Source of the DNA: an uncultured Candidatus Saccharibacteria bacterium
GTDB lineage: Bacteria > Patescibacteriota > Saccharimonadia > Saccharimonadales > JAGQNJ01
Assembly: GCA_964577565.1 (NCBI GenBank)
Contig: CAZNZL010000001.1
Span: forward strand, 142,566-206,565
Direction of reading: 5' to 3'
DNA: 64,000 bases
The notes under the pieces are model-generated. The model ran no database searches. It saw only the letters and a list, made by a program, of their open reading frames with translations, and was not told where the DNA came from. Of this stretch, positions 3,644 to 60,244 are shown in pieces. The first letter of the stretch is position 1; every line of letters starts with the position of its first letter. The position numbers and the translations under genes are program-made.

Positions 3644-6600
3644 TTAGGTCGTATACTTGCCTGCAATAAGATCTTCTTCAAATTGCAACACTCCTTTAAT
3701 AGTGTGTTCATAAGCAGACGTATCAGGGAAGTTAAGCGATTGGATATTACGCCACACTGCTTGGATTAAAGTTATGAAACGGTCAAGCTCGTTTTGTTTA
3801 TAGATAATTTTGAGGGGCTTTAAAAGCTTGCCGCTGTCATCGCTTTCTATAAACTCTAAAGCACCGGATGACACATGGTATTTAGCCTGGAATGCCGCCG
3901 AGTGCTCTACTAATAGTTTATAAAACATCAATTGTTGGTGGTATTTGTGCAATTTTAACTGTTCGTAATCGTACCTGCCCTTCCAGCTTGACGAGGGTTT
4001 GCCGGTTTTGTAATCTACGACGCAAATTTGGCCAGGGCCCTCAATGGTCATTTTATCTATTTTTCCGGTTAAATGAGCTTCACCAAGCAATACGCCTTCA
4101 TTGCCAAAGCCTCTCTCAATAATAGCATCGGTAGTAATGGTGTTTTCTCGTTTTTTAATATAGTGCGCAAGTGCATTTTTGCCACGATCAGCAAAGAGTT
4201 TAAACTCGTTGTCGGAGATATGCTTGCGCTGCAGCATATCACAAAAATAATCTTCTATTTGTTGACGTGTTGGTATTGATCCGGTTGAACTGTATTCTCC
4301 ATAGATCCATTGTAGTGTTTTGTGGATAGCATCGCCGTAGGCAGCATGGGGTGTCATGGCTTCTGGGAAGCGTAACAGGTTATGGGTTAAAAAGTACTCT
4401 GGACCCGCATTGATGATATCTAAGTAATTATTAAGATGCGTAACGCTTAGTTTGTAGTTGGCTAAGATTGGCTGCAGCAACGTAGGCTTATCGGCAATAA
4501 TGTCTTTAAATCGGTAGGCCCAGTCTTTTTGTAGAATAGTTTCTGACTCTTCTTCGCTGGCCAAGTTGACAAACTGTGGCGCCAAAACCGGATGAATCAC
4601 CTCCTGGCTGCTGTTACCGCCAATAAAACTTAAACCAAGCGACAACTTGTTATCAAAGTTGTGCGTATAGCTCGTAATGAACAGGCTGTGTTTCGCGCGT
4701 GTTAAGGCTACATAAAACAGGCGCAGCCGATCATTAATATCATCACCCGCCGGTTTAATTGGCAAATTGCGAGGCAAACGGATTCTGTCCGCTCGTGATC
4801 GGGCACTTTGGCCCCATACCTCATCTTGGGCGTTAATAACAAACACGACGCTAAATTCTAGCCCCTTGGCTTTATAGGCCGTCATTACTTGCACGGCGTT
4901 GGTGGTCTGGGTGTGGGGATTAGTGTCAATGATTTTCAGGCCTGCCTGTTCGTGCAAGCGCACAAACTCAACAAAATCACGAAGAAGCAGGCCTTTATCA
5001 GGCTGCCAGGCACGTAAACGATGACGAAGGGTTGCTAATTGACCCAGCAGTGCCAGATAGGTGTCGGTTTGCGTATTAAAACGTGTTTTACTAAAGTGGT
5101 ACTCTCTAAAAGGTGACTGAAAGCCTTCATTTTGAACAAGTTTAGTTGGTACCGGTTCGGCGTTTTCATTTGAGTCGATTATGGTCTCGTTATTGCCAAT
5201 AAGCCGGTCAAGCATATATTCAAGCGGCATCGTATTGCTTTGCTGAGCACCTTCTAAAAACCACCGCGCAATGTGGCTGATTCGCCTATCGGTGTGTGTG
5301 AGCATACACTCAAGCCACCGGGTGCCATTTTCGTAACATTGCAAGCTCAAATAAGCGACCGTTTCAAGACCAATTCCCCAAAACGGATAGGTTAAAACTT
5401 CTCCAAACAGCGCATCGGTGGCAGTGTGGTCATTTTGGGCAAGCGCATCGGTTAAGCGGCACATTGTAATAAGTTGTCGCATTGCAGGCGCATCAAGAAT
5501 ATTTTCTTTGCGCTCATACGCGACGGGGATTTTTTGCGAGCCAATATATGGCATAAACCGTTCAAGGTATTTGTGTTTCGGCGCAATAACAGCAATATCA
5601 TTAGGCGATATGCCGGCTTCAATCATTTCATTAATTTTTTCGGCAACCCATTGATATTGTTGGAGTTCGCTTGGAAGAACGGTTTGTGTCACAACGTTTG
5701 CTGGCAAACTGGCTTTGGCTGCCAGTTTTTTATCAACGTTATCCAGCAAATCTTCAAGTCGATTAGCGGCTTGTTTGACCAGTAATGTGCTAACATCAAG
5801 AATAGTTTGGGTTGAACGGTAATTATCGGTGAGCGTAATTAGTTTCACGTCGCGGTATTGGTTAACAAAATCAAGCATAGTAGAACTTTCAGCACCTTGA
5901 AACGCATAAATAGCTTGATCATCATCACCAACAGCCATGATATTGGGTCTTCCCTCATTGACCGGGTTTTGACCCAAGGCATGCATTATACGAGCCTGTG
6001 CTTTATTAGTATCTTGAAATTCGTCGATTAAGATGTACTGGTAACGTTCTTGTAAATTGAGACGTAATTCTTCGTTTGCTTCAAGCGCGTGAACAACTTC
6101 AATGATCATATCATCAAAATCATATAACCCTCGTTCTGTCATTTTTTGTTGCAAGCGATGATAAACTTTGCGCAAACTATACATTTTTTTTAGGGCTTTG
6201 CCGCTGTCTTTAAAAACGTAGCTTCCTTCGTCATTCTTTTCTAGCCATTTACTGCGCCATGCCGTTATTGATGGCACATAACGTGTTGAGCCTTGGGCTT
6301 GTTCTATGGCAAACGCAAGATCGGTGGCGCATGCTTCAGCGTAACTCGAGAAAGCAAATTTAGATTCGGCATTGTATTGCTGCATTGTTTTTAAAAGCAG
6401 AAGGTAGTTAGGCATGTGTTTAGCGCTTGGTGATGATACAAAAGTTTTTTGTATGACAGGCGTTAGCTTATCAATAAAACCAGCATTATCTTTTAAGACA
6501 TCTTCTAACTCGCTCGGTGTTAAGGCATTTTGTTTTAGCCAGCTAATGGTATGCAGGCTGTCACGTAAAAATATAAAATCTTCACCTACTTTTGTACTTA

Positions 6601-54764: not shown

Positions 54765-54881
54765 CTAGCCTTGCCTCTGCTTATGCTTAGGCTTTAGTTT
54801 GTTGATAACGTACAAACGGCCCTTGCGGCGGACCAGTTTGTCATCCGGACTAATCTTTTTTACACTTGCACGCACTTTCAT
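54765..54881 (-). CDS. rpmJ: ribosomal protein L36
   Basis: Not in the ORF track (38 aa). My translation: [48 protein letters not shown] upstream. Confidence 0.85.
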
Positions 54882-54925
54882 GCGGATCATCGCTCCTTTC
54901 AAGCTTGCAATGACTCACTGCTTAT

Positions 54926-55147
54926 TTAGTTCTTGCGATAGGTGATTCTTCCCTTAGTGAGATCGTAAGGGGTCAACTCAACCGTAACGCTGTCGCCCGG
55001 AACAATTCTGATAAAATGCTTGCGCATCTTCCCGGCAACATGAGCTATAATTTGATGGCCGTTTTCGAGTTCAACCTTAAACTGCGTACCCGGTAGGGTC
55101 TCAACAATTGTACCGGTCAACTCAATCACTTCTTTATTATTGGCCAT
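54926..55147 (-). CDS. infA: translation initiation factor IF-1
   Basis: [41 protein letters not shown]. Confidence 0.95.
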
Positions 55148-55201
55148 AAATATATAACAAGACTTAAGTATAGCAAATATAACCCCTGTTTGTAAAGGGT
55201 T

Positions 55202-56704
55202 TTATTTCTTTTTTCTTGGAAGGGACGGCCGTTTAATGAACCGAAGGCGTCTTCCACCGGTACCAGCTTCGGCAGGCGTGGTGGCTTCATACAGAAAATC
55301 AGGTTGTTCGTATTGATCATACGTTAACATTAGTGCTTGCGATTCTAGCTTTCGCAGCGTTTCAAGCGCTACCGCCACCAAAATTAGTATACTTGTACCA
55401 CCAATTGTTATGTTTACGTTTAAAAAGGCTTGACCAATGATTGGCATTACCGCAAGCAGTCCCAGGCTTAGTGCACCAAACAGTGTGAGGCGGTTAACTA
55501 CACGCGACAAATATTTTTCGGTTTGTTGACCAGATCGAACACCTTCTATAAAACCACCTTGCTTTTGGAGATTTTCGGCAATGTCATGGGCATTAAAGGC
55601 AATGCTGGTGTAAAAGAAAGTAAATATAAACACTAGTAAGAAATATACGACGGGATAAATATAGGGCTGCACGCCACCCAATGCAAAGGTTTGCGGAGTT
55701 GGGGTTTGAAACCACGTGACTAAATTGGTACCAATCTCTTGTAGTCGTGCGCTTTCTGACCCGGCCATAATTTGGCCTGCGAATGCCGGCACACTCAAAA
55801 ATGCAACCGCGAAGATAATCGGAACAACTCCAGCAGTAATTAACTTTATAGGGAGTACGGTAGTCACGCCGCCATAAATGCGGTTGCCCTGAACACGTTT
55901 AGCGTAATTAATCGTCAGGTTACGAGAGGCTTCATTAAGCTTTACAACCAGAATGGTTGTTATGATTACGATGGCAAGAATAATCAGGGCATACCAAAAG
56001 GCGCGTTGGTCAATCGGCAGCTGCCACCCAAAAATATTCCATTTTTTATCTTCTTGGATAATGCTATTCATTAAGTTTGCAATGGTTGAGGGCAGTTGGC
56101 TGACAATGCCTACTGTAATTATCAGCGATATACCGTTACCAATGTTGTGTTCTGTTATTAACTCACCAAGCCACATCAATAGCATTGCGCCACCGGTTAA
56201 GGCCGTTACCATAACTACCCATTGCCACAAACTGGCATTTGCAGTGATGTCACCCAAGCCCCCAAGGCTGGATGCGGTTTGCTTTACCAAATATATAGAC
56301 CCTATGGATTGAATTATTGCCAAGGGTAAAGTGATGAGGCGTGTGTATTGATTAAGCTTCTTGCGCCCAAATTCGCCTTCTTTATTTAGGGCTTCAAGCT
56401 TCGGTATAGCGCGTGTCAATAACTGCATGATAATTGAGGCATTAATGTACGGGCCGAGCCCTACAAGCATGATTGAAAAGTTTGCTAAAGCACCGCCCGA
56501 CAGAACGTCAACAAAACTAAGTAGTTGAGAAGACTGCGCAGAGTTAAATAGCGTTTCAAGGATTTGCTTCAGTGTATCGCCGCTTGCAATAGGAATAGGA
56601 ATATGAGCAAGAACGCGAAAAACTAGAATCATACCAAGTACGGCGAAAATTTTCTTTCGCATTTCAGCATTTGCCAATGCTTTACCAATTGTTTTCCAGT
56701 TCAT
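55202..56704 (-). CDS. secY: preprotein translocase subunit SecY with basic C-terminal tail
   Basis: 500 aa, 10 TM segments; GLGPYINASIIMQLL, GNGISLII. Confidence 0.95.
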   Translation of the reverse strand: MNWKTIGKALANAEMRKKIFAVLGMILVFRVLAHIPIPIASGDTLKQILETLFNSAQSSQLLSFVDVLSGGALANFSIMLVGLGPYINASIIMQLLTRAIPKLEALNKEGEFGRKKLNQYTRLITLPLAIIQSIGSIYLVKQTASSLGGLGDITANASLWQWVVMVTALTGGAMLLMWLGELITEHNIGNGISLIITVGIVSQLPSTIANLMNSIIQEDKKWNIFGWQLPIDQRAFWYALIILAIVIITTILVVKLNEASRNLTINYAKRVQGNRIYGGVTTVLPIKLITAGVVPIIFAVAFLSVPAFAGQIMAGSESARLQEIGTNLVTWFQTPTPQTFALGGVQPYIYPVVYFLLVFIFTFFYTSIAFNAHDIAENLQKQGGFIEGVRSGQQTEKYLSRVVNRLTLFGALSLGLLAVMPIIGQAFLNVNITIGGTSILILVAVALETLRKLESQALMLTYDQYEQPDFLYEATTPAEAGTGGRRLRFIKRPSLPRKKK

Positions 56705-56760
56705 TATTTGACCCTCATCTTATCCTCATTGTAGCCTATACTGAGCGAGAAATCGTGTTG

Positions 56761-57228
56761 TTATTTTGTGGTTTTTTCTTTTGCGGCTCGTTTTGGTCGG
56801 GCAACAATATCAAAATCACCGCCCGCCTTCTTGACGGCTTCAGCTGCAGCTTTGCTTGCACCTTGCAGTTTTATCGTATGTTTTTTGGTGACAGCGGTGT
56901 CAAATAATAACTTTACTCGTACGTACGGACTTGATATAAGCCCCGCTTCAAACAAGACATTGTTGTCAACGCGAGCGGCCAGCGAGTCAAGTTGGCTGGT
57001 ATAAACATTCTCAGCTTTGGCGTGGATTGATCGAAAGCCCGGAAGCTTAGGAATGCGTTGTACAAGCGGATTTTGACCACCTTCAAAGCCAGGTCGTACA
57101 CCACCGCCCGTACGAGAGTTTTGGCCCTTTGTACCGCGTCCGGCAGTTTTACCCTTGCCTGCGGCAATACCTCGGCCCGGTCGTGTAGCTGGTGTTTGTT
57201 TATTAAGTGACAATTCATTATACTTCAT
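56761..57228 (-). CDS. rplO: ribosomal protein L15
   Basis: [21 protein letters not shown]. Confidence 0.93.
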
Positions 57229-57776
57229 TACTTTGTTACCTCTGCTTTAGCTTTTGCAGGCTTTTTCGGTGCTGTTGTTTTTGCCTTTTTGGTGGTAACC
57301 CAAGCCTTTTGTGGTTGAATTTCAGTAAGAGCTTTAATGGTAGCGTAGGCAATATTAATTTTGTTTGTAGAACCAAGTGACTTTGAAAGGGCGTTATTAA
57401 CGCCAGAAACCTCAAGAACGGTTCTTACGACACCACCAGCAATTAACCCCGTACCGGCGCTTGCTGGCTTAATAAGAATACGAGCTCCGGCTACTTTTGC
57501 TTCTGACTCATGAGGAACCGTTCCTTTATAAAGAGGGATAGTTACCATGTTCTTTTTAGCTTTATCAGTAGCTTTTGAAACAGCACTGGTTACATCTAAC
57601 CCTTTTGATACCCCAGCACCAACGCGACCTTTATGATCACCAACCACTACCAAAGCACGAAAACGAAAACGGCGGCCACCTTTAACAACACGAGCAACGC
57701 GGTCAATATGAACCATACGCTCATCAAGCTGGTTTTCGTCATTTAGTTCTTTTTGTACATTTCTATTGTCGGCCAT
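57228..57776 (-). CDS. rpsE: ribosomal protein S5 with Lys/Ala-rich C-terminal extension
   Basis: [26 protein letters not shown]. Confidence 0.95.
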
Positions 57777-58682: not shown

Positions 58683-58697
58683 CGTAATTACCTCTTA

Positions 58698-59103: not shown

Positions 59104-59373
59104 TTACCAACTTGCCTTTGTTACGCCAGGAATCTCGCCCTTAGAAGCGTGTTCGCGGAACGAAATACGGCTCATACCAAACGTACGCATGTAACCACGT
59201 GGCCGGCCCGTTTCAATGCAGCGGTTCTTCCAGCGGGTTGGTGAAGAATTACGAGGCAATTTGTGCAGTGTCTCAAAATCTCCGGCCGCTTTTAACTCGG
59301 CACGCTTGCTGGCGTACTTTTTAATCATTTCTTGTCGTTTTTTATCGCGGGCTACAATTGATTTCTTAGCCAT
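59104..59373 (-). CDS. rpsN: ribosomal protein S14 (long, non-zinc type)
   Basis: [20 protein letters not shown]...[26 protein letters not shown]. Confidence 0.93.
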
Positions 59374-59664
59374 TTAATTTTCTCCTCTATCAATATTTTC
59401 AAATTCCTGCGCTAACATCTCTGCTTCAACCCCCACAAGTGCAGACCGGATTGCATCGCCAGGCAACTGGATTTGGCCGAGTTTTCTTGCAAATGCTTCT
59501 TCTCCGCCTATGCCCGGAAATAGCGCTGCCCTTCTTCCGTATTTAGCAACTGCATCCATAACTGCTTCTTCATTCTCACCTGTCGTTATCATTCTGTATT
59601 CGATTGCTCTTGCATCTGGATGCCACGTTAGAATAGAAGCTTGAGTATCAATTTTTCCGACCAT
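59374..59664 (-). CDS. hypothetical 96-aa acidic protein inserted between rplE and rpsN
   Basis: ATG 59664 lies 1 nt after the rplE TAA (AAGGAGG sits 8 nt upstream). Its TAA is immediately followed by the rpsN ATG. No motif recognised. Confidence 0.55.
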   Translation of the reverse strand: MVGKIDTQASILTWHPDARAIEYRMITTGENEEAVMDAVAKYGRRAALFPGIGGEEAFARKLGQIQLPGDAIRSALVGVEAEMLAQEFENIDRGEN

Positions 59665-59665
59665 G

Positions 59666-60244
59666 TTACTTCGCCTCCTTGTTAGATTTTTCAAAGGGCA
59701 TGCCTAACTTCTCAAGCAATGCTTTCGCGTGCTCTGGCTGTTCTGAGTTAACCACGCAAACAATTTGCATGCCGTGAGTTATTGGCGTGTCTTCAAAAGT
59801 TAGCTCAGGGAACACGGTCTGGTCGCTCAGGCCTAGACTGTAGTTACCCTGTTTGTCAAAAGCTTTATTATTAACACCGTGAAAGTCACGCAATCGTGGC
59901 AGTACAATATTTACCAATCGGTCTAAAAATTCGTACATTCGATCGCCGCGTAAGGTAACTTTGAGGCCAATTTTGTTGCCTTCTCGCAATTTAAAGCTTG
60001 CGATCGACAGCTTTGCGGTTGTTTGAACAGGTTCTTGACCAGTTATTTTACGAAGTGTGGTGGTGGCAACTTCCATAAGCCGTTTATCGTCTTTTGCACG
60101 CCCAAGGCCAATATTAATGACAATTTTTTCAAGGCTTGGTACTTGATGAACATTCTTCAACCCGAGCTCTTTCAAGAGTTCTTTAGCAATGGTTTCTTTA
60201 TATTGGCTCTTTAAGCGAGCAGTTTGTACTGTCTTGGCCGCCAT
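59666..60244 (-). CDS. rplE: ribosomal protein L5
   Basis: RLKSQYKETIAKEL...VINIGLG... Confidence 0.95.
   Translation of the reverse strand: MAAKTVQTARLKSQYKETIAKELLKELGLKNVHQVPSLEKIVINIGLGRAKDDKRLMEVATTTLRKITGQEPVQTTAKLSIASFKLREGNKIGLKVTLRGDRMYEFLDRLVNIVLPRLRDFHGVNNKAFDKQGNYSLGLSDQTVFPELTFEDTPITHGMQIVCVVNSEQPEHAKALLEKLGMPFEKSNKEAK

What the first reader, a model, noticed from the sequence alone, without database searches (positions are those of the whole stretch)
59374..59664. Orphan ORF occupying the rplE-rpsN junction of the spc operon
Within an otherwise canonical run (rplN-rplX-rplE-rpsN-rpsH-rplF), a 96-aa acidic ORF fills the junction exactly.

- Its ATG lies 1 nt after the rplE TAA, with AAGGAGG 8 nt upstream.
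- Its TAA is immediately followed by the rpsN ATG.
- The rpsN SD (GAGGAGA) lies inside its last codons.

All other junctions in this 12-kb cluster join known r-protein genes directly. This makes it the single foreign element in the most conserved gene array of bacteria.
Basis: partly seen in the sequence, partly recalled or inferred. Interest (0 to 1): 0.7.

Follow-up and report, generated by a model that had tools for sequence, protein, structure and literature searches.

The report
Orphan relay ORF between rplE and rpsN
A 96-codon gene with no relatives sits exactly between two ribosomal-protein genes of a Saccharibacteria genome, and comparison with 160 related genomes suggests it is a young insert that persists because it is translated end to end, which passes ribosomes on to the next gene.

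Summary
On the minus strand a 96-codon ORF (59374-59664) starts 1 nt after the rplE stop and ends directly against the rpsN ATG. Each of the two starts has a Shine-Dalgarno motif upstream. The ORF is a true orphan: only itself in about 15 billion proteins, no family, phage, plasmid or PDB match, and absent from all 160 related Saccharimonadales loci.

It is one case of a recurrent pattern. In those relatives, 19 of 156 rplE/rpsN junctions carry an insert, and all 19 are exact gap-filling ORFs. Over all junctions, 74 of 130 inserts are exact fillers against about 7 expected from shuffles. At normally overlapping junctions the count is 53 of 55. Short fillers are multi-copy hairpin repeats, like mycobacterial MIRUs. 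Long fillers (59-122 aa), including this one, are unique, all acidic, not codon-adapted, and differ between near-identical strains.

Best reading: a young insert kept as a translated relay that preserves translational coupling into rpsN. Its peptide is probably a by-product or proto-gene, not a conserved ribosomal component. A real function for the acidic product is not excluded. I rate it a new variant of a known kind, of moderate interest.

The parts
59666..60244 (-). rplE (uL5), 192 aa; its last codons hold the SD now used by the ORF
   Evidence: Pfam Ribosomal_L5/L5_C on the identical Logan contig. It is 68-82% identical to L5 of 160 Saccharimonadales loci. The stop is at the same position as in the nearest relatives.
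59674..59680 (-). AAGGAGG Shine-Dalgarno motif, 9 nt before the ORF ATG. It is the ancestral rpsN SD, as shown by relatives that lack the insert.
   Evidence: L002-L004 have ...AAGGAG(G/A)C(G/A/T)AAATAATGGCT, with rpsN starting in TAATG.
59374..59664 (-). Orphan 96-codon ORF (stop included), the junction-filling 'relay' cistron. Relative to the nearest relatives it is a clean +292 nt at the TAATG junction.
   Evidence: Amino-acid-level coding signal is gene-like. Synonymous codon use is not adapted.
59572..59652 (-). ORF residues 5-31 (IDTQASILTWHPDARAIEYRMITTGEN): a weak resemblance to a blade motif of DUF5122-type beta-propeller repeat proteins, probably not meaningful
   Evidence: The score is 13 bits against a repeat HMM chosen post hoc. 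The phmmer E-values are inflated because many weak matches to repeats are summed.
59381..59387 (-). GAGGAGA Shine-Dalgarno motif for rpsN, encoded inside the last ORF codons (R-G-E), 7 nt before the ATG
   Evidence: The same feature occurs in 64 of 66 distinct fillers of related loci, against 8% of control windows.
59104..59373 (-). rpsN (uS14, 89 aa, long type without the zinc-binding cysteines). Its ATG directly follows the ORF stop, in the same reading frame.
   Evidence: Pfam Ribosomal_S14; 73-92% identity to S14 of relatives.

Best explanation
The ORF is a young, lineage-specific insertion of about 292 nt into the rplE/rpsN stop-start overlap (ancestrally TAATG) of a Saccharimonadales spc operon. 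It persists because it is built as a translated relay.

Ribosomes finishing rplE re-initiate 1 nt downstream on the ORF, using what was the rpsN SD. They translate the whole insert and terminate on a TAA that abuts the rpsN ATG. There they re-initiate with help from a new SD encoded in the ORF's last codons.

This keeps rpsN, and through it the downstream cistrons, translationally coupled. It also keeps the inserted RNA covered by ribosomes. The acidic 10.5-kDa peptide is most likely a tolerated by-product or proto-gene, not a conserved ribosomal component.

Shown: the architecture, orphan status, absence from relatives, lack of codon adaptation, and the rule that inserts at tight junctions are exact fillers. 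Inferred: actual translation, dependence of rpsN on coupling in this organism, and lack of function of the peptide.
For: 1. Geometry and SDs at both ends.

2. The three nearest relatives (L5 78-82% identical) have rplE TAATG rpsN with the same SD, so the ORF is a clean insertion.

3. In 160 related loci, all 19 rplE/rpsN inserts of at least 60 nt are exact fillers. Over all junctions, 74 of 130 are fillers against 6.9 expected from shuffling the insert interiors.

4. Internal control: at junctions that are normally overlapping or within 3 nt, 53 of 55 inserts are exact fillers. At junctions that normally have an 11-19 nt spacer, 21 of 75 are (Fisher p = 1e-16).

5. 64 of 66 fillers carry an SD-like 4-mer before the downstream start, against 8% in control windows. 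Spacings at both ends are mostly -1 and -4.

6. Youth. The ORF is a singleton among about 15 billion proteins. Its synonymous codon score is -0.087, equal to the base-composition null (-0.089 +/- 0.052). It is below all 239 real 96-codon windows of this genome piece (0.078 +/- 0.059), and the neighbouring r-protein genes score 0.08-0.21. All 17 long fillers scored, the window's included, show the same lack of adaptation: 0.08 on a scale where neighbours score 0.97.

7. Turnover is rapid. L161 has a 366-nt filler while L144, 98.7% identical in five r-proteins, has none. L071 and L061, 98.6% identical, carry different fillers.

8. Published experiments show that reinitiation is largely or completely lost at +38 nt in E. 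coli and at about 20 nt in H. volcanii (PMC10666635). An untranslated 292-nt insert would therefore uncouple rpsN.

9. [quoted passage not shown]
Against: 1. The amino-acid and codon-position composition is protein-like (LLR 0.235 per codon, z = 3.5 against an open-random null). All 18 long fillers are net acidic (mean z = -3.15). The peptide sequence is therefore not free of selection and may have a function.

2. rpsN has its own good SD, so independent initiation may be possible and the need for a relay is not proven.

3. The source of the inserted DNA is unknown.

4. Only one sequence of this ORF exists, so neither dN/dS nor selection for openness can be measured on it.

5. There are no expression data.
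Confidence: 0.55

Rival explanations
1. The ORF encodes a functional, lineage-specific small acidic protein made in step with ribosomal proteins. It could be a ribosome-associated factor, or an acidic partner or chaperone for basic r-proteins such as uL5 or uS14. On this view the junction position serves stoichiometric co-expression.
For: The composition is protein-like, with codon-position periodicity GC1/2/3 of 0.60/0.43/0.31 and LLR within the range of real genes. AF2 predicts a hairpin plus four helices, at low confidence. All 18 unrelated long fillers are net negative, whereas random open sequence predicts net positive. Thirteen of the 18 sit at this same junction. From my own knowledge, not tested here: archaeal spc clusters show that extra r-protein genes can live inside this array.
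Against: There is no homologue anywhere. It is absent from the three nearest relatives and from all 160 loci. Synonymous codon use is unadapted in the most highly expressed operon. The other long fillers are unrelated to it and to each other and come and go between 98.7%-identical strains. There is no Pfam, NCBIfam or PDB match. Acidity can also be explained as selection for a harmless, soluble by-product that does not bind RNA.
Confidence: 0.25
2. The ORF is the cargo or body of a mobile cassette that targets stop-start junctions. It would be a long version of the short multi-copy intercistronic repeats seen in relatives, and its ORF, SD and stop-start design would be adaptations of the element rather than of the host.
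For: Short fillers are clearly multi-copy families within one operon. L067 has five copies at 86-97% identity, each with a hairpin, its own ATG, an SD and a stop/start overlap. One longer family (L013, L048, L140) shares a C-terminal module across two different junction types. Presence and absence are clean between near-identical strains, and in L161 TAATGGCT lies on both sides of the insert. MIRUs are described as mobile with this design.
Against: There is no second copy or relative of this insert in the 64-kb window, in the 160 related loci (tblastn with the ORF as query) or in the protein collections. It has no inverted repeat or stable fold (z = +0.86) and no tandem repeat. There is no target-site-duplication signal beyond what the SD and stop/start constraint gives (same-locus 12.2 against cross-locus 12.1 identities in 30 nt). 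It encodes no transposase or nuclease.
Confidence: 0.12
3. It is an artefact: an assembly chimera, or a chance ORF in junk DNA that carries no selective signature.
For: The sequence comes from one MAG. Both assemblies may derive from the same reads.
Against: Two assemblers give the identical locus. P(open by chance) is about 0.0015, before the exact abutment at both ends and two SDs are required. The same architecture recurs in 19 of 19 independent rplE/rpsN inserts in other genomes.
Confidence: 0.03

Closest known systems
MIRUs (mycobacterial interspersed repetitive units; Supply et al. 1997, as summarised in PMC12548453)
   Same: Inserted DNA between co-transcribed genes that carries its own small ORF. 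[quoted passage not shown] The short fillers in related Saccharimonadales match this description closely.
   Different: From my own recollection, MIRUs are 40-100 bp, multi-copy and often in tandem. The window ORF is 291 nt, single-copy and non-repetitive, with no hairpin. It has protein-like acidic composition and sits in the r-protein operon of a different phylum.
Rickettsia palindromic elements (RPEs) and other MITEs inserted in frame (own knowledge; PMC10969869 surfaced in the search but was not read)
   Same: Selfish or accidental DNA is tolerated in an essential, expressed region because it stays translatable.
   Different: RPEs insert inside genes and become part of the host protein. 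They are palindromic and multi-copy. Here the insert is a separate cistron between genes, neither palindromic nor repeated.
'Delivery' upstream ORFs and synthetic bicistronic designs (PMC12548453)
   Same: The role of the ORF is to bring a ribosome to a coupled downstream start rather than to encode a functional protein.
   Different: Those are short leaders at the 5' end of a message. This is a 96-codon cistron inside a long operon, coupled at both ends.
Lineage-specific ribosomal protein genes inside the spc cluster (archaeal S4e, L32e, L19e; own knowledge)
   Same: Extra cistrons embedded in the otherwise universal L14-L24-L5-S14-S8-L6 array.
   Different: Those are conserved across a whole domain, basic, and demonstrated ribosome components. 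This ORF is confined to one genome, acidic, and unadapted in codon use.
Orphan or de novo (proto-)genes
   Same: No homologues, short, absent from sister taxa, and codon use that reflects base composition.
   Different: This one sits where translation at very high level is essentially forced by operon architecture. It would not pass through the low and sporadic expression stage I would expect of a proto-gene (own knowledge).

Membership tests
Bacterial ribosomal protein (conserved component encoded in the spc operon) | Conserved in related genomes at the same position | tested here: not met
   Absent from all 160 Saccharimonadales loci. The nearest relatives have TAATG at the junction. It is a singleton in the protein collections.
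Bacterial ribosomal protein (conserved component encoded in the spc operon) | Sequence match to a known r-protein family or to a chain of a solved ribosome | tested here: not met
   No Pfam or NCBIfam family. Best PDB sequence match has E = 0.18, to an amylase.
Bacterial ribosomal protein (conserved component encoded in the spc operon) | Physical presence in purified ribosomes | not testable with these tools
   Needs mass spectrometry of ribosomes from the organism.
Translationally coupled cistron (termination-reinitiation) | Stop and start overlapping or within a few nt, at the upstream and the downstream end | tested here: met
   +1 nt after the rplE stop and 0 nt before the rpsN start. This is within the -8..+10 nt range taken as predictive of coupling in PMC10666635.
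Translationally coupled cistron (termination-reinitiation) | SD-like motif inside the 3' end of the upstream cistron | tested here: met
   AAGGAGG before the ORF and GAGGAGA before rpsN. Class-wide, 64 of 66 fillers have one against 8% of controls.
Translationally coupled cistron (termination-reinitiation) | Downstream translation drops when upstream translation is stopped early | not testable with these tools
   Needs a reporter assay or ribosome profiling.
MIRU-like or MITE-like intercistronic repeat element | Internal ORF whose ends meet the stop and start of the flanking genes | tested here: met
MIRU-like or MITE-like intercistronic repeat element | Multiple related copies in the genome or in related genomes | tested here: not met
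   No other copy in the 64-kb window, in 160 loci (tblastn with the ORF as query) or in the protein collections. The rest of the genome was not available.
MIRU-like or MITE-like intercistronic repeat element | Short unit with an inverted repeat, hairpin or tandem structure | tested here: not met
   291 nt; fold z = +0.86; no tandem repeat; no inverted repeat.
DUF5122-type beta-propeller repeat protein | Significant match to the family model | tested here: not met
   No Pfam hit at E <= 10. Only residues 5-31 match a blade motif, at 13 bits against an HMM built post hoc. The phmmer E-values of 1e-13 come from summing up to 17 weak matches to repeats.
Orphan or de novo proto-gene | No detectable homologue, and absent from sister lineages at the syntenic site | tested here: met
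Orphan or de novo proto-gene | Codon usage not adapted to the host | tested here: met
Orphan or de novo proto-gene | Identifiable non-coding ancestor sequence | tested here: inconclusive
   The ancestral junction had no spare DNA (TAATG). No source for the inserted 292 nt was found in the data available.

The most novel reading that the evidence does not exclude
In Saccharimonadales, translational coupling makes the junctions of the ribosomal-protein operon places where any surviving insert must be translated at ribosomal-protein level. The rplE/rpsN junction in particular would act as a cradle in which unrelated acidic mini-proteins are repeatedly born and lost. Some of them, possibly this one, may have acquired a role beside the ribosome, for example as an acidic partner or chaperone of basic r-proteins.
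Probability: 0.2. Interest if true: 0.8.

Novelty: new variant of a known kind. Interest (0 to 1): 0.55.

Why it matters
If the relay reading is right, this locus and its counterparts are a natural experiment on translational coupling. They would show that in a compact operon the coupling constraint is strong enough to dictate the form of every surviving insertion: an exact ORF, an SD in its tail and an overlapping stop-start.

They would also give a rare setting for studying gene birth, in which new, unadapted coding sequence is expressed at very high level from the first day. Here selection for harmlessness (acidity) can be separated from selection for function.

It also matters practically. 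These ORFs are annotated as hypothetical proteins inside the marker-gene block used for phylogenomics of uncultured bacteria, and they vary between near-identical strains.

Tried and rejected
1. Duplication of the rplE 3' end or the rpsN 5' end as the source of the insert. BLASTP found no alignment. The DNA local score of 20 is within shuffles (19.1 +/- 2.1). The best local match does lie at the same offset from both 3' ends, but it is not significant.

2. Target-site duplication. Same-locus and cross-locus similarity of the two junctions are equal. The resemblance comes from the SD plus stop/start constraint.

3. Homology to DUF5122 beta-propeller giants. The phmmer E-values (1e-13 to 6e-5) arise from summing many 0-7 bit matches of one 27-residue segment to repeats. 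The profile score is 13 bits, against an HMM chosen post hoc. Rejected as evidence of origin.

4. Structured RNA, riboswitch or r-protein leader. No Rfam match at E <= 1. Fold z = +0.86. No terminator on the sense strand, and promoter-like sites are below the chance expectation.

5. Phage, plasmid, viral or defence origin. No tblastn hit in phages or plasmids. No relative in viral contigs. No PHROG family. The PADLOC QatB hit (E = 0.03, 11.8 bits) and the NCBIfam SDR hit (E = 0.045, 12.7 bits against a cut-off of 538) are noise.

6. A gene fragment read in another frame or on the other strand. The five other frames give no Pfam hit. The 88-codon open antisense frame is explained by the purine-rich sense strand and is not coding-like (LLR -0.03).

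7. Structure prediction. AF2 on the single sequence gave pLDDT 45 and pTM 0.27, too poor for a fold search, so none was run.

8. A common family of long fillers. All-against-all BLASTP and phmmer find only the L013/L048/L140 trio. No Pfam domain in any of them. A second long filler (L067, 108 aa) is also a database singleton.

9. Closer relatives for dN/dS. The genome and metagenome scans gave nothing closer than 82% L5 identity, and none carries the ORF.

10. Tandem or dispersed repeats of the insert in the window: none.

11. Literature. No description of junction-filling ORFs in Patescibacteria r-protein operons was found. The MIRU analogy came from a review of translational coupling.

Full report
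**1. What is in the sequence**

The ribosomal-protein cluster runs on the minus strand. The ORF occupies 59374-59664. The rplE stop TAA is at 59668-59666, followed by one base (C), then the ORF ATG at 59664. The ORF stop TAA at 59376-59374 is followed at once by the rpsN ATG at 59373.

AAGGAGG (59680-59674) lies in the last rplE codons, with 9 nt between it and the ORF start. GAGGAGA (59387-59381) lies in the last ORF codons, 7 nt before the rpsN start.

The product is 96 aa: MVGKIDTQASILTWHPDARAIEYRMITTGENEEAVMDAVAKYGRRAALFPGIGGEEAFARKLGQIQLPGDAIRSALVGVEAEMLAQEFENIDRGEN. It has pI 4.7, 16 acidic against 10 basic residues, and no cysteine.

Pfam confirms the neighbours as L2, S19, L22, S3, L16, L29, S17, L14, L24, L5 | ORF | S14, S8, L6, L18, S5, L15. 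All other junctions in the cluster are tight: most overlap by 1-4 nt, and none leaves more than 15 nt between genes.

A 96-codon open frame at this composition has P about 0.0015, before the exact abutment at both ends is required. An independent Logan assembly of run SRR7082976 holds an identical L29-S14 contig.

**2. Whose genome**

The L5 protein finds 160 loci, 80 from GTDB species representatives and 80 from metagenome contigs. Most of the named genome records are titled Candidatus Saccharibacteria or Saccharimonadales, at 68-82% identity. rpsE runs straight into rplO with no rpmD, the loss of uL30 known for CPR bacteria (PMC9297842). No sampled genome is closer than 82% in L5.

**3. The ORF is a true orphan**

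- No Pfam or PHROG family. The single NCBIfam hit (12.7 bits against a cut-off of 538) and the single PADLOC hit (11.8 bits) are noise.
- The word-indexed search of 5.8 billion clusters returns only the ORF itself, as a one-member cluster.
- The exhaustive phmmer over 1.84 billion representatives returns itself plus six giant repeat proteins.
- Those six hits are not solid. Only residues 5-31 align, to a beta-propeller blade motif that recurs up to 17 times per protein. Each match scores 0-7 bits and the sum is what produces the E-values.
- Against an HMM of that repeat the ORF scores 13 bits. That beats 5000 shuffles, but the family was picked post hoc from the whole database.
- There is no match in phages, plasmids, viral contigs or PDB sequences.
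- The other five reading frames give no Pfam hit.
- Nothing similar exists elsewhere in the 64-kb window.
- AF2 without an alignment gives pLDDT 45, so no fold search was attempted.
- The region is not a structured RNA. Rfam gives no match, the fold z-score is +0.86, and there is no sense-strand terminator.

**4. Relatives show a clean insertion and a general rule**

The three nearest relatives (L002-L004) read ...AAGGAG(G/A)C(G/A/T)AAATAATGGCT.... rpsN starts inside the rplE stop (TAATG) and uses the very SD that now precedes the ORF. The window therefore has about 292 extra bases at that point.

Across 156 related rplE/rpsN junctions the typical spacing is -1, and 19 of them carry an insert of at least 60 nt. 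All 19 inserts are ORFs that start at or overlapping the rplE stop and stop at or overlapping the rpsN start.

The pattern is not confined to this junction. Over all junctions from rplV to rplO there are 130 inserts. Of these, 74 are exact fillers, against 6.9 expected when the insert interiors are shuffled.

The strongest internal control compares junction types. At junctions that are normally overlapping or within 3 nt, 53 of 55 inserts are exact fillers. At junctions that normally have an 11-19 nt spacer, and so presumably initiate independently, 21 of 75 are (Fisher p = 1e-16).

Of 66 distinct fillers, 64 carry an SD-like 4-mer 5-17 nt before the downstream start, against 8% of control windows. 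The spacings at both ends are dominated by -1 and -4.

**5. Two classes of filler**

Short fillers (25-56 aa, about 100-165 nt):
- They are repeat families with several copies in one operon. L067 has five copies at 86-97% identity, and L078, L069, L050/L052, L080, L022 and L061 also have families.
- They carry a long imperfect hairpin, their own ATG, a conserved ...CTGAAAGGAGC... SD and a stop/start overlap.
- Their peptides are net positive, as random open sequence predicts, and show almost no coding periodicity.

Long fillers (59-122 aa; 18 distinct, including the window's; 13 at rplE/rpsN):
- They are unique sequences with no Pfam domain and no mutual similarity, apart from one trio.
- All 18 are net negative. 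The mean z is -3.15 against an open-random null that predicts net positive peptides.
- They show moderate coding periodicity: 0.23 against 0.53 for r-protein genes and 0.07 for short fillers.
- A second long filler that was tested (L067, 108 aa) is also a database singleton.

**6. Age**

The window ORF looks gene-like at the level of whole codons. Its LLR is 0.235 per codon, within the range of real in-frame windows, above every off-frame window, and z = 3.5 against an open-random null. That signal comes from amino-acid composition.

Given its amino acids, its choice among synonymous codons scores -0.087. This equals the base-composition null (-0.089 +/- 0.052). It is below all 239 real 96-codon windows of this genome piece (0.078 +/- 0.059, minimum -0.080), and the neighbouring r-protein genes score 0.08-0.21. 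For example, 5 of 7 Arg codons are AGA and 10 of 14 Ala codons are GCA.

The 17 long fillers scored, the window's included, behave the same way. Their relative adaptation is 0.08 on a scale where the composition null is 0 and neighbouring r-protein genes score 0.97 +/- 0.16.

Turnover is fast:
- L161 has a 366-nt filler, while L144, 98.7% identical over five r-proteins, has none.
- L071 and L061, 98.6% identical, carry different fillers.
- L045/L103 (94.7%) and L069/L099 (91.4%) differ by presence and absence.

G+C of the insert matches its surroundings.

**7. Mechanism proposed**

Ribosomes that terminate on rplE re-initiate on the ORF, translate through the insert, terminate on the TAA next to the rpsN ATG and re-initiate there. 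The SD in the ORF tail helps that last step.

Experiments on native gene pairs show that reinitiation falls by 40-80% at +14 nt. It is largely or completely lost at +38 nt in E. coli, and near 20 nt in Haloferax (PMC10666635). An untranslated 292-nt insert would therefore break the coupling, whereas a relay ORF restores it.

By inference, translation through the insert would also protect the message from Rho-dependent polarity and from decay. This was not tested, and I did not establish that this organism has Rho.

The peptide's acidity fits selection for a soluble product that does not bind RNA and is made at very high level. It equally fits a real function beside basic r-proteins. The data cannot separate these two readings.

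**8. Comparison with what is known**

The closest described system is the mycobacterial MIRU. [quoted passage not shown] This is thought to minimise the effect on expression (review PMC12548453 citing Supply et al. 1997). The short Saccharimonadales fillers fit that description.

The window ORF shares the architecture but fails the repeat, copy-number and hairpin criteria. It belongs to a long, unique, acidic class that I did not find described.

It is not a member of any r-protein family and not a demonstrable DUF5122 protein.

**9. Verdict**

It is neither a unique breach of a universal array nor a conserved gene.

| Reading | Confidence |
|---|---|
| Young insert kept as a translational relay, peptide a by-product or proto-gene | 0.55 |
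| Functional acidic protein | 0.25 |
| Junction-targeting mobile cassette | 0.12 |
| Artefact | 0.03 |

Novelty: a new variant of a known kind. Interest is moderate (0.55). It comes mainly from the class-level rule and from the concentration of acidic newborn ORFs at rplE/rpsN, which remains unexplained.

Noticed in passing
L003:3759-3863, L004:1627-1731 and the rpsH/rplF junctions of L054, L067/L131, L089, L091, L106, L132, L152; not present in the window (15-nt gap 58683-58697): At least ten related loci encode a 30-44 aa ORF between rpsH and rplF. It consists of one hydrophobic helix followed by a Lys/Arg-rich tail, for example MNPTAFIVIGILLSSIGLGVSIWQIGKNKKGKKL. It may be a recurrent membrane mini-protein.
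   Followed up: partly
L067:325-465, 854-994, 1648-1785, 3676-3820, 4850-4990; also L078, L069, L050/L052, L080, L022, L061: Multi-copy intercistronic repeat families of about 100-165 nt sit inside the S10/spc operon. Each has a long imperfect hairpin, its own ATG, a conserved SD (CTGAAAGGAGC) and a stop/start overlap. They are MIRU-like elements in Saccharimonadales.
   Followed up: partly
L013 rpmC/rpsQ, L048 rpmC/rpsQ, L140 rplE/rpsN, and a related stretch in L074:101-237: One longer filler family shares a C-terminal module (..SPIH...GAL.GD.P.S..ERSEV) at two different junction types. This suggests that some long fillers move between junctions.
   Followed up: no
L161 and L144 rplE/rpsN junctions (alignment): Two loci 98.7% identical in five r-proteins differ by a clean 366-nt ORF. 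The insert is bounded on both sides by TAATGGCT, a possible microhomology for precise gain or loss.
   Followed up: partly
window 54765-57776: rpsE overlaps rplO directly, so there is no rpmD/uL30. secY (55202-56704) is followed by a 73-aa and a 45-aa ORF that I read as infA and rpmJ, without a family search, and there is no adk or map gene between them. This is a compact CPR-type cluster.
   Followed up: no
window 59371-59664: The ORF and rpsN are in the same reading frame, separated only by the TAA. Read-through of that stop would give an ORF-S14 fusion. Nothing suggests that this happens.
   Followed up: no
rpsE and rplE 5' ends in many related loci (e.g. L010, L014, L035, L049, L050, L052): [quoted passage not shown] classed 16 of the 34 rplR/rpsE gaps this way.
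   Followed up: no
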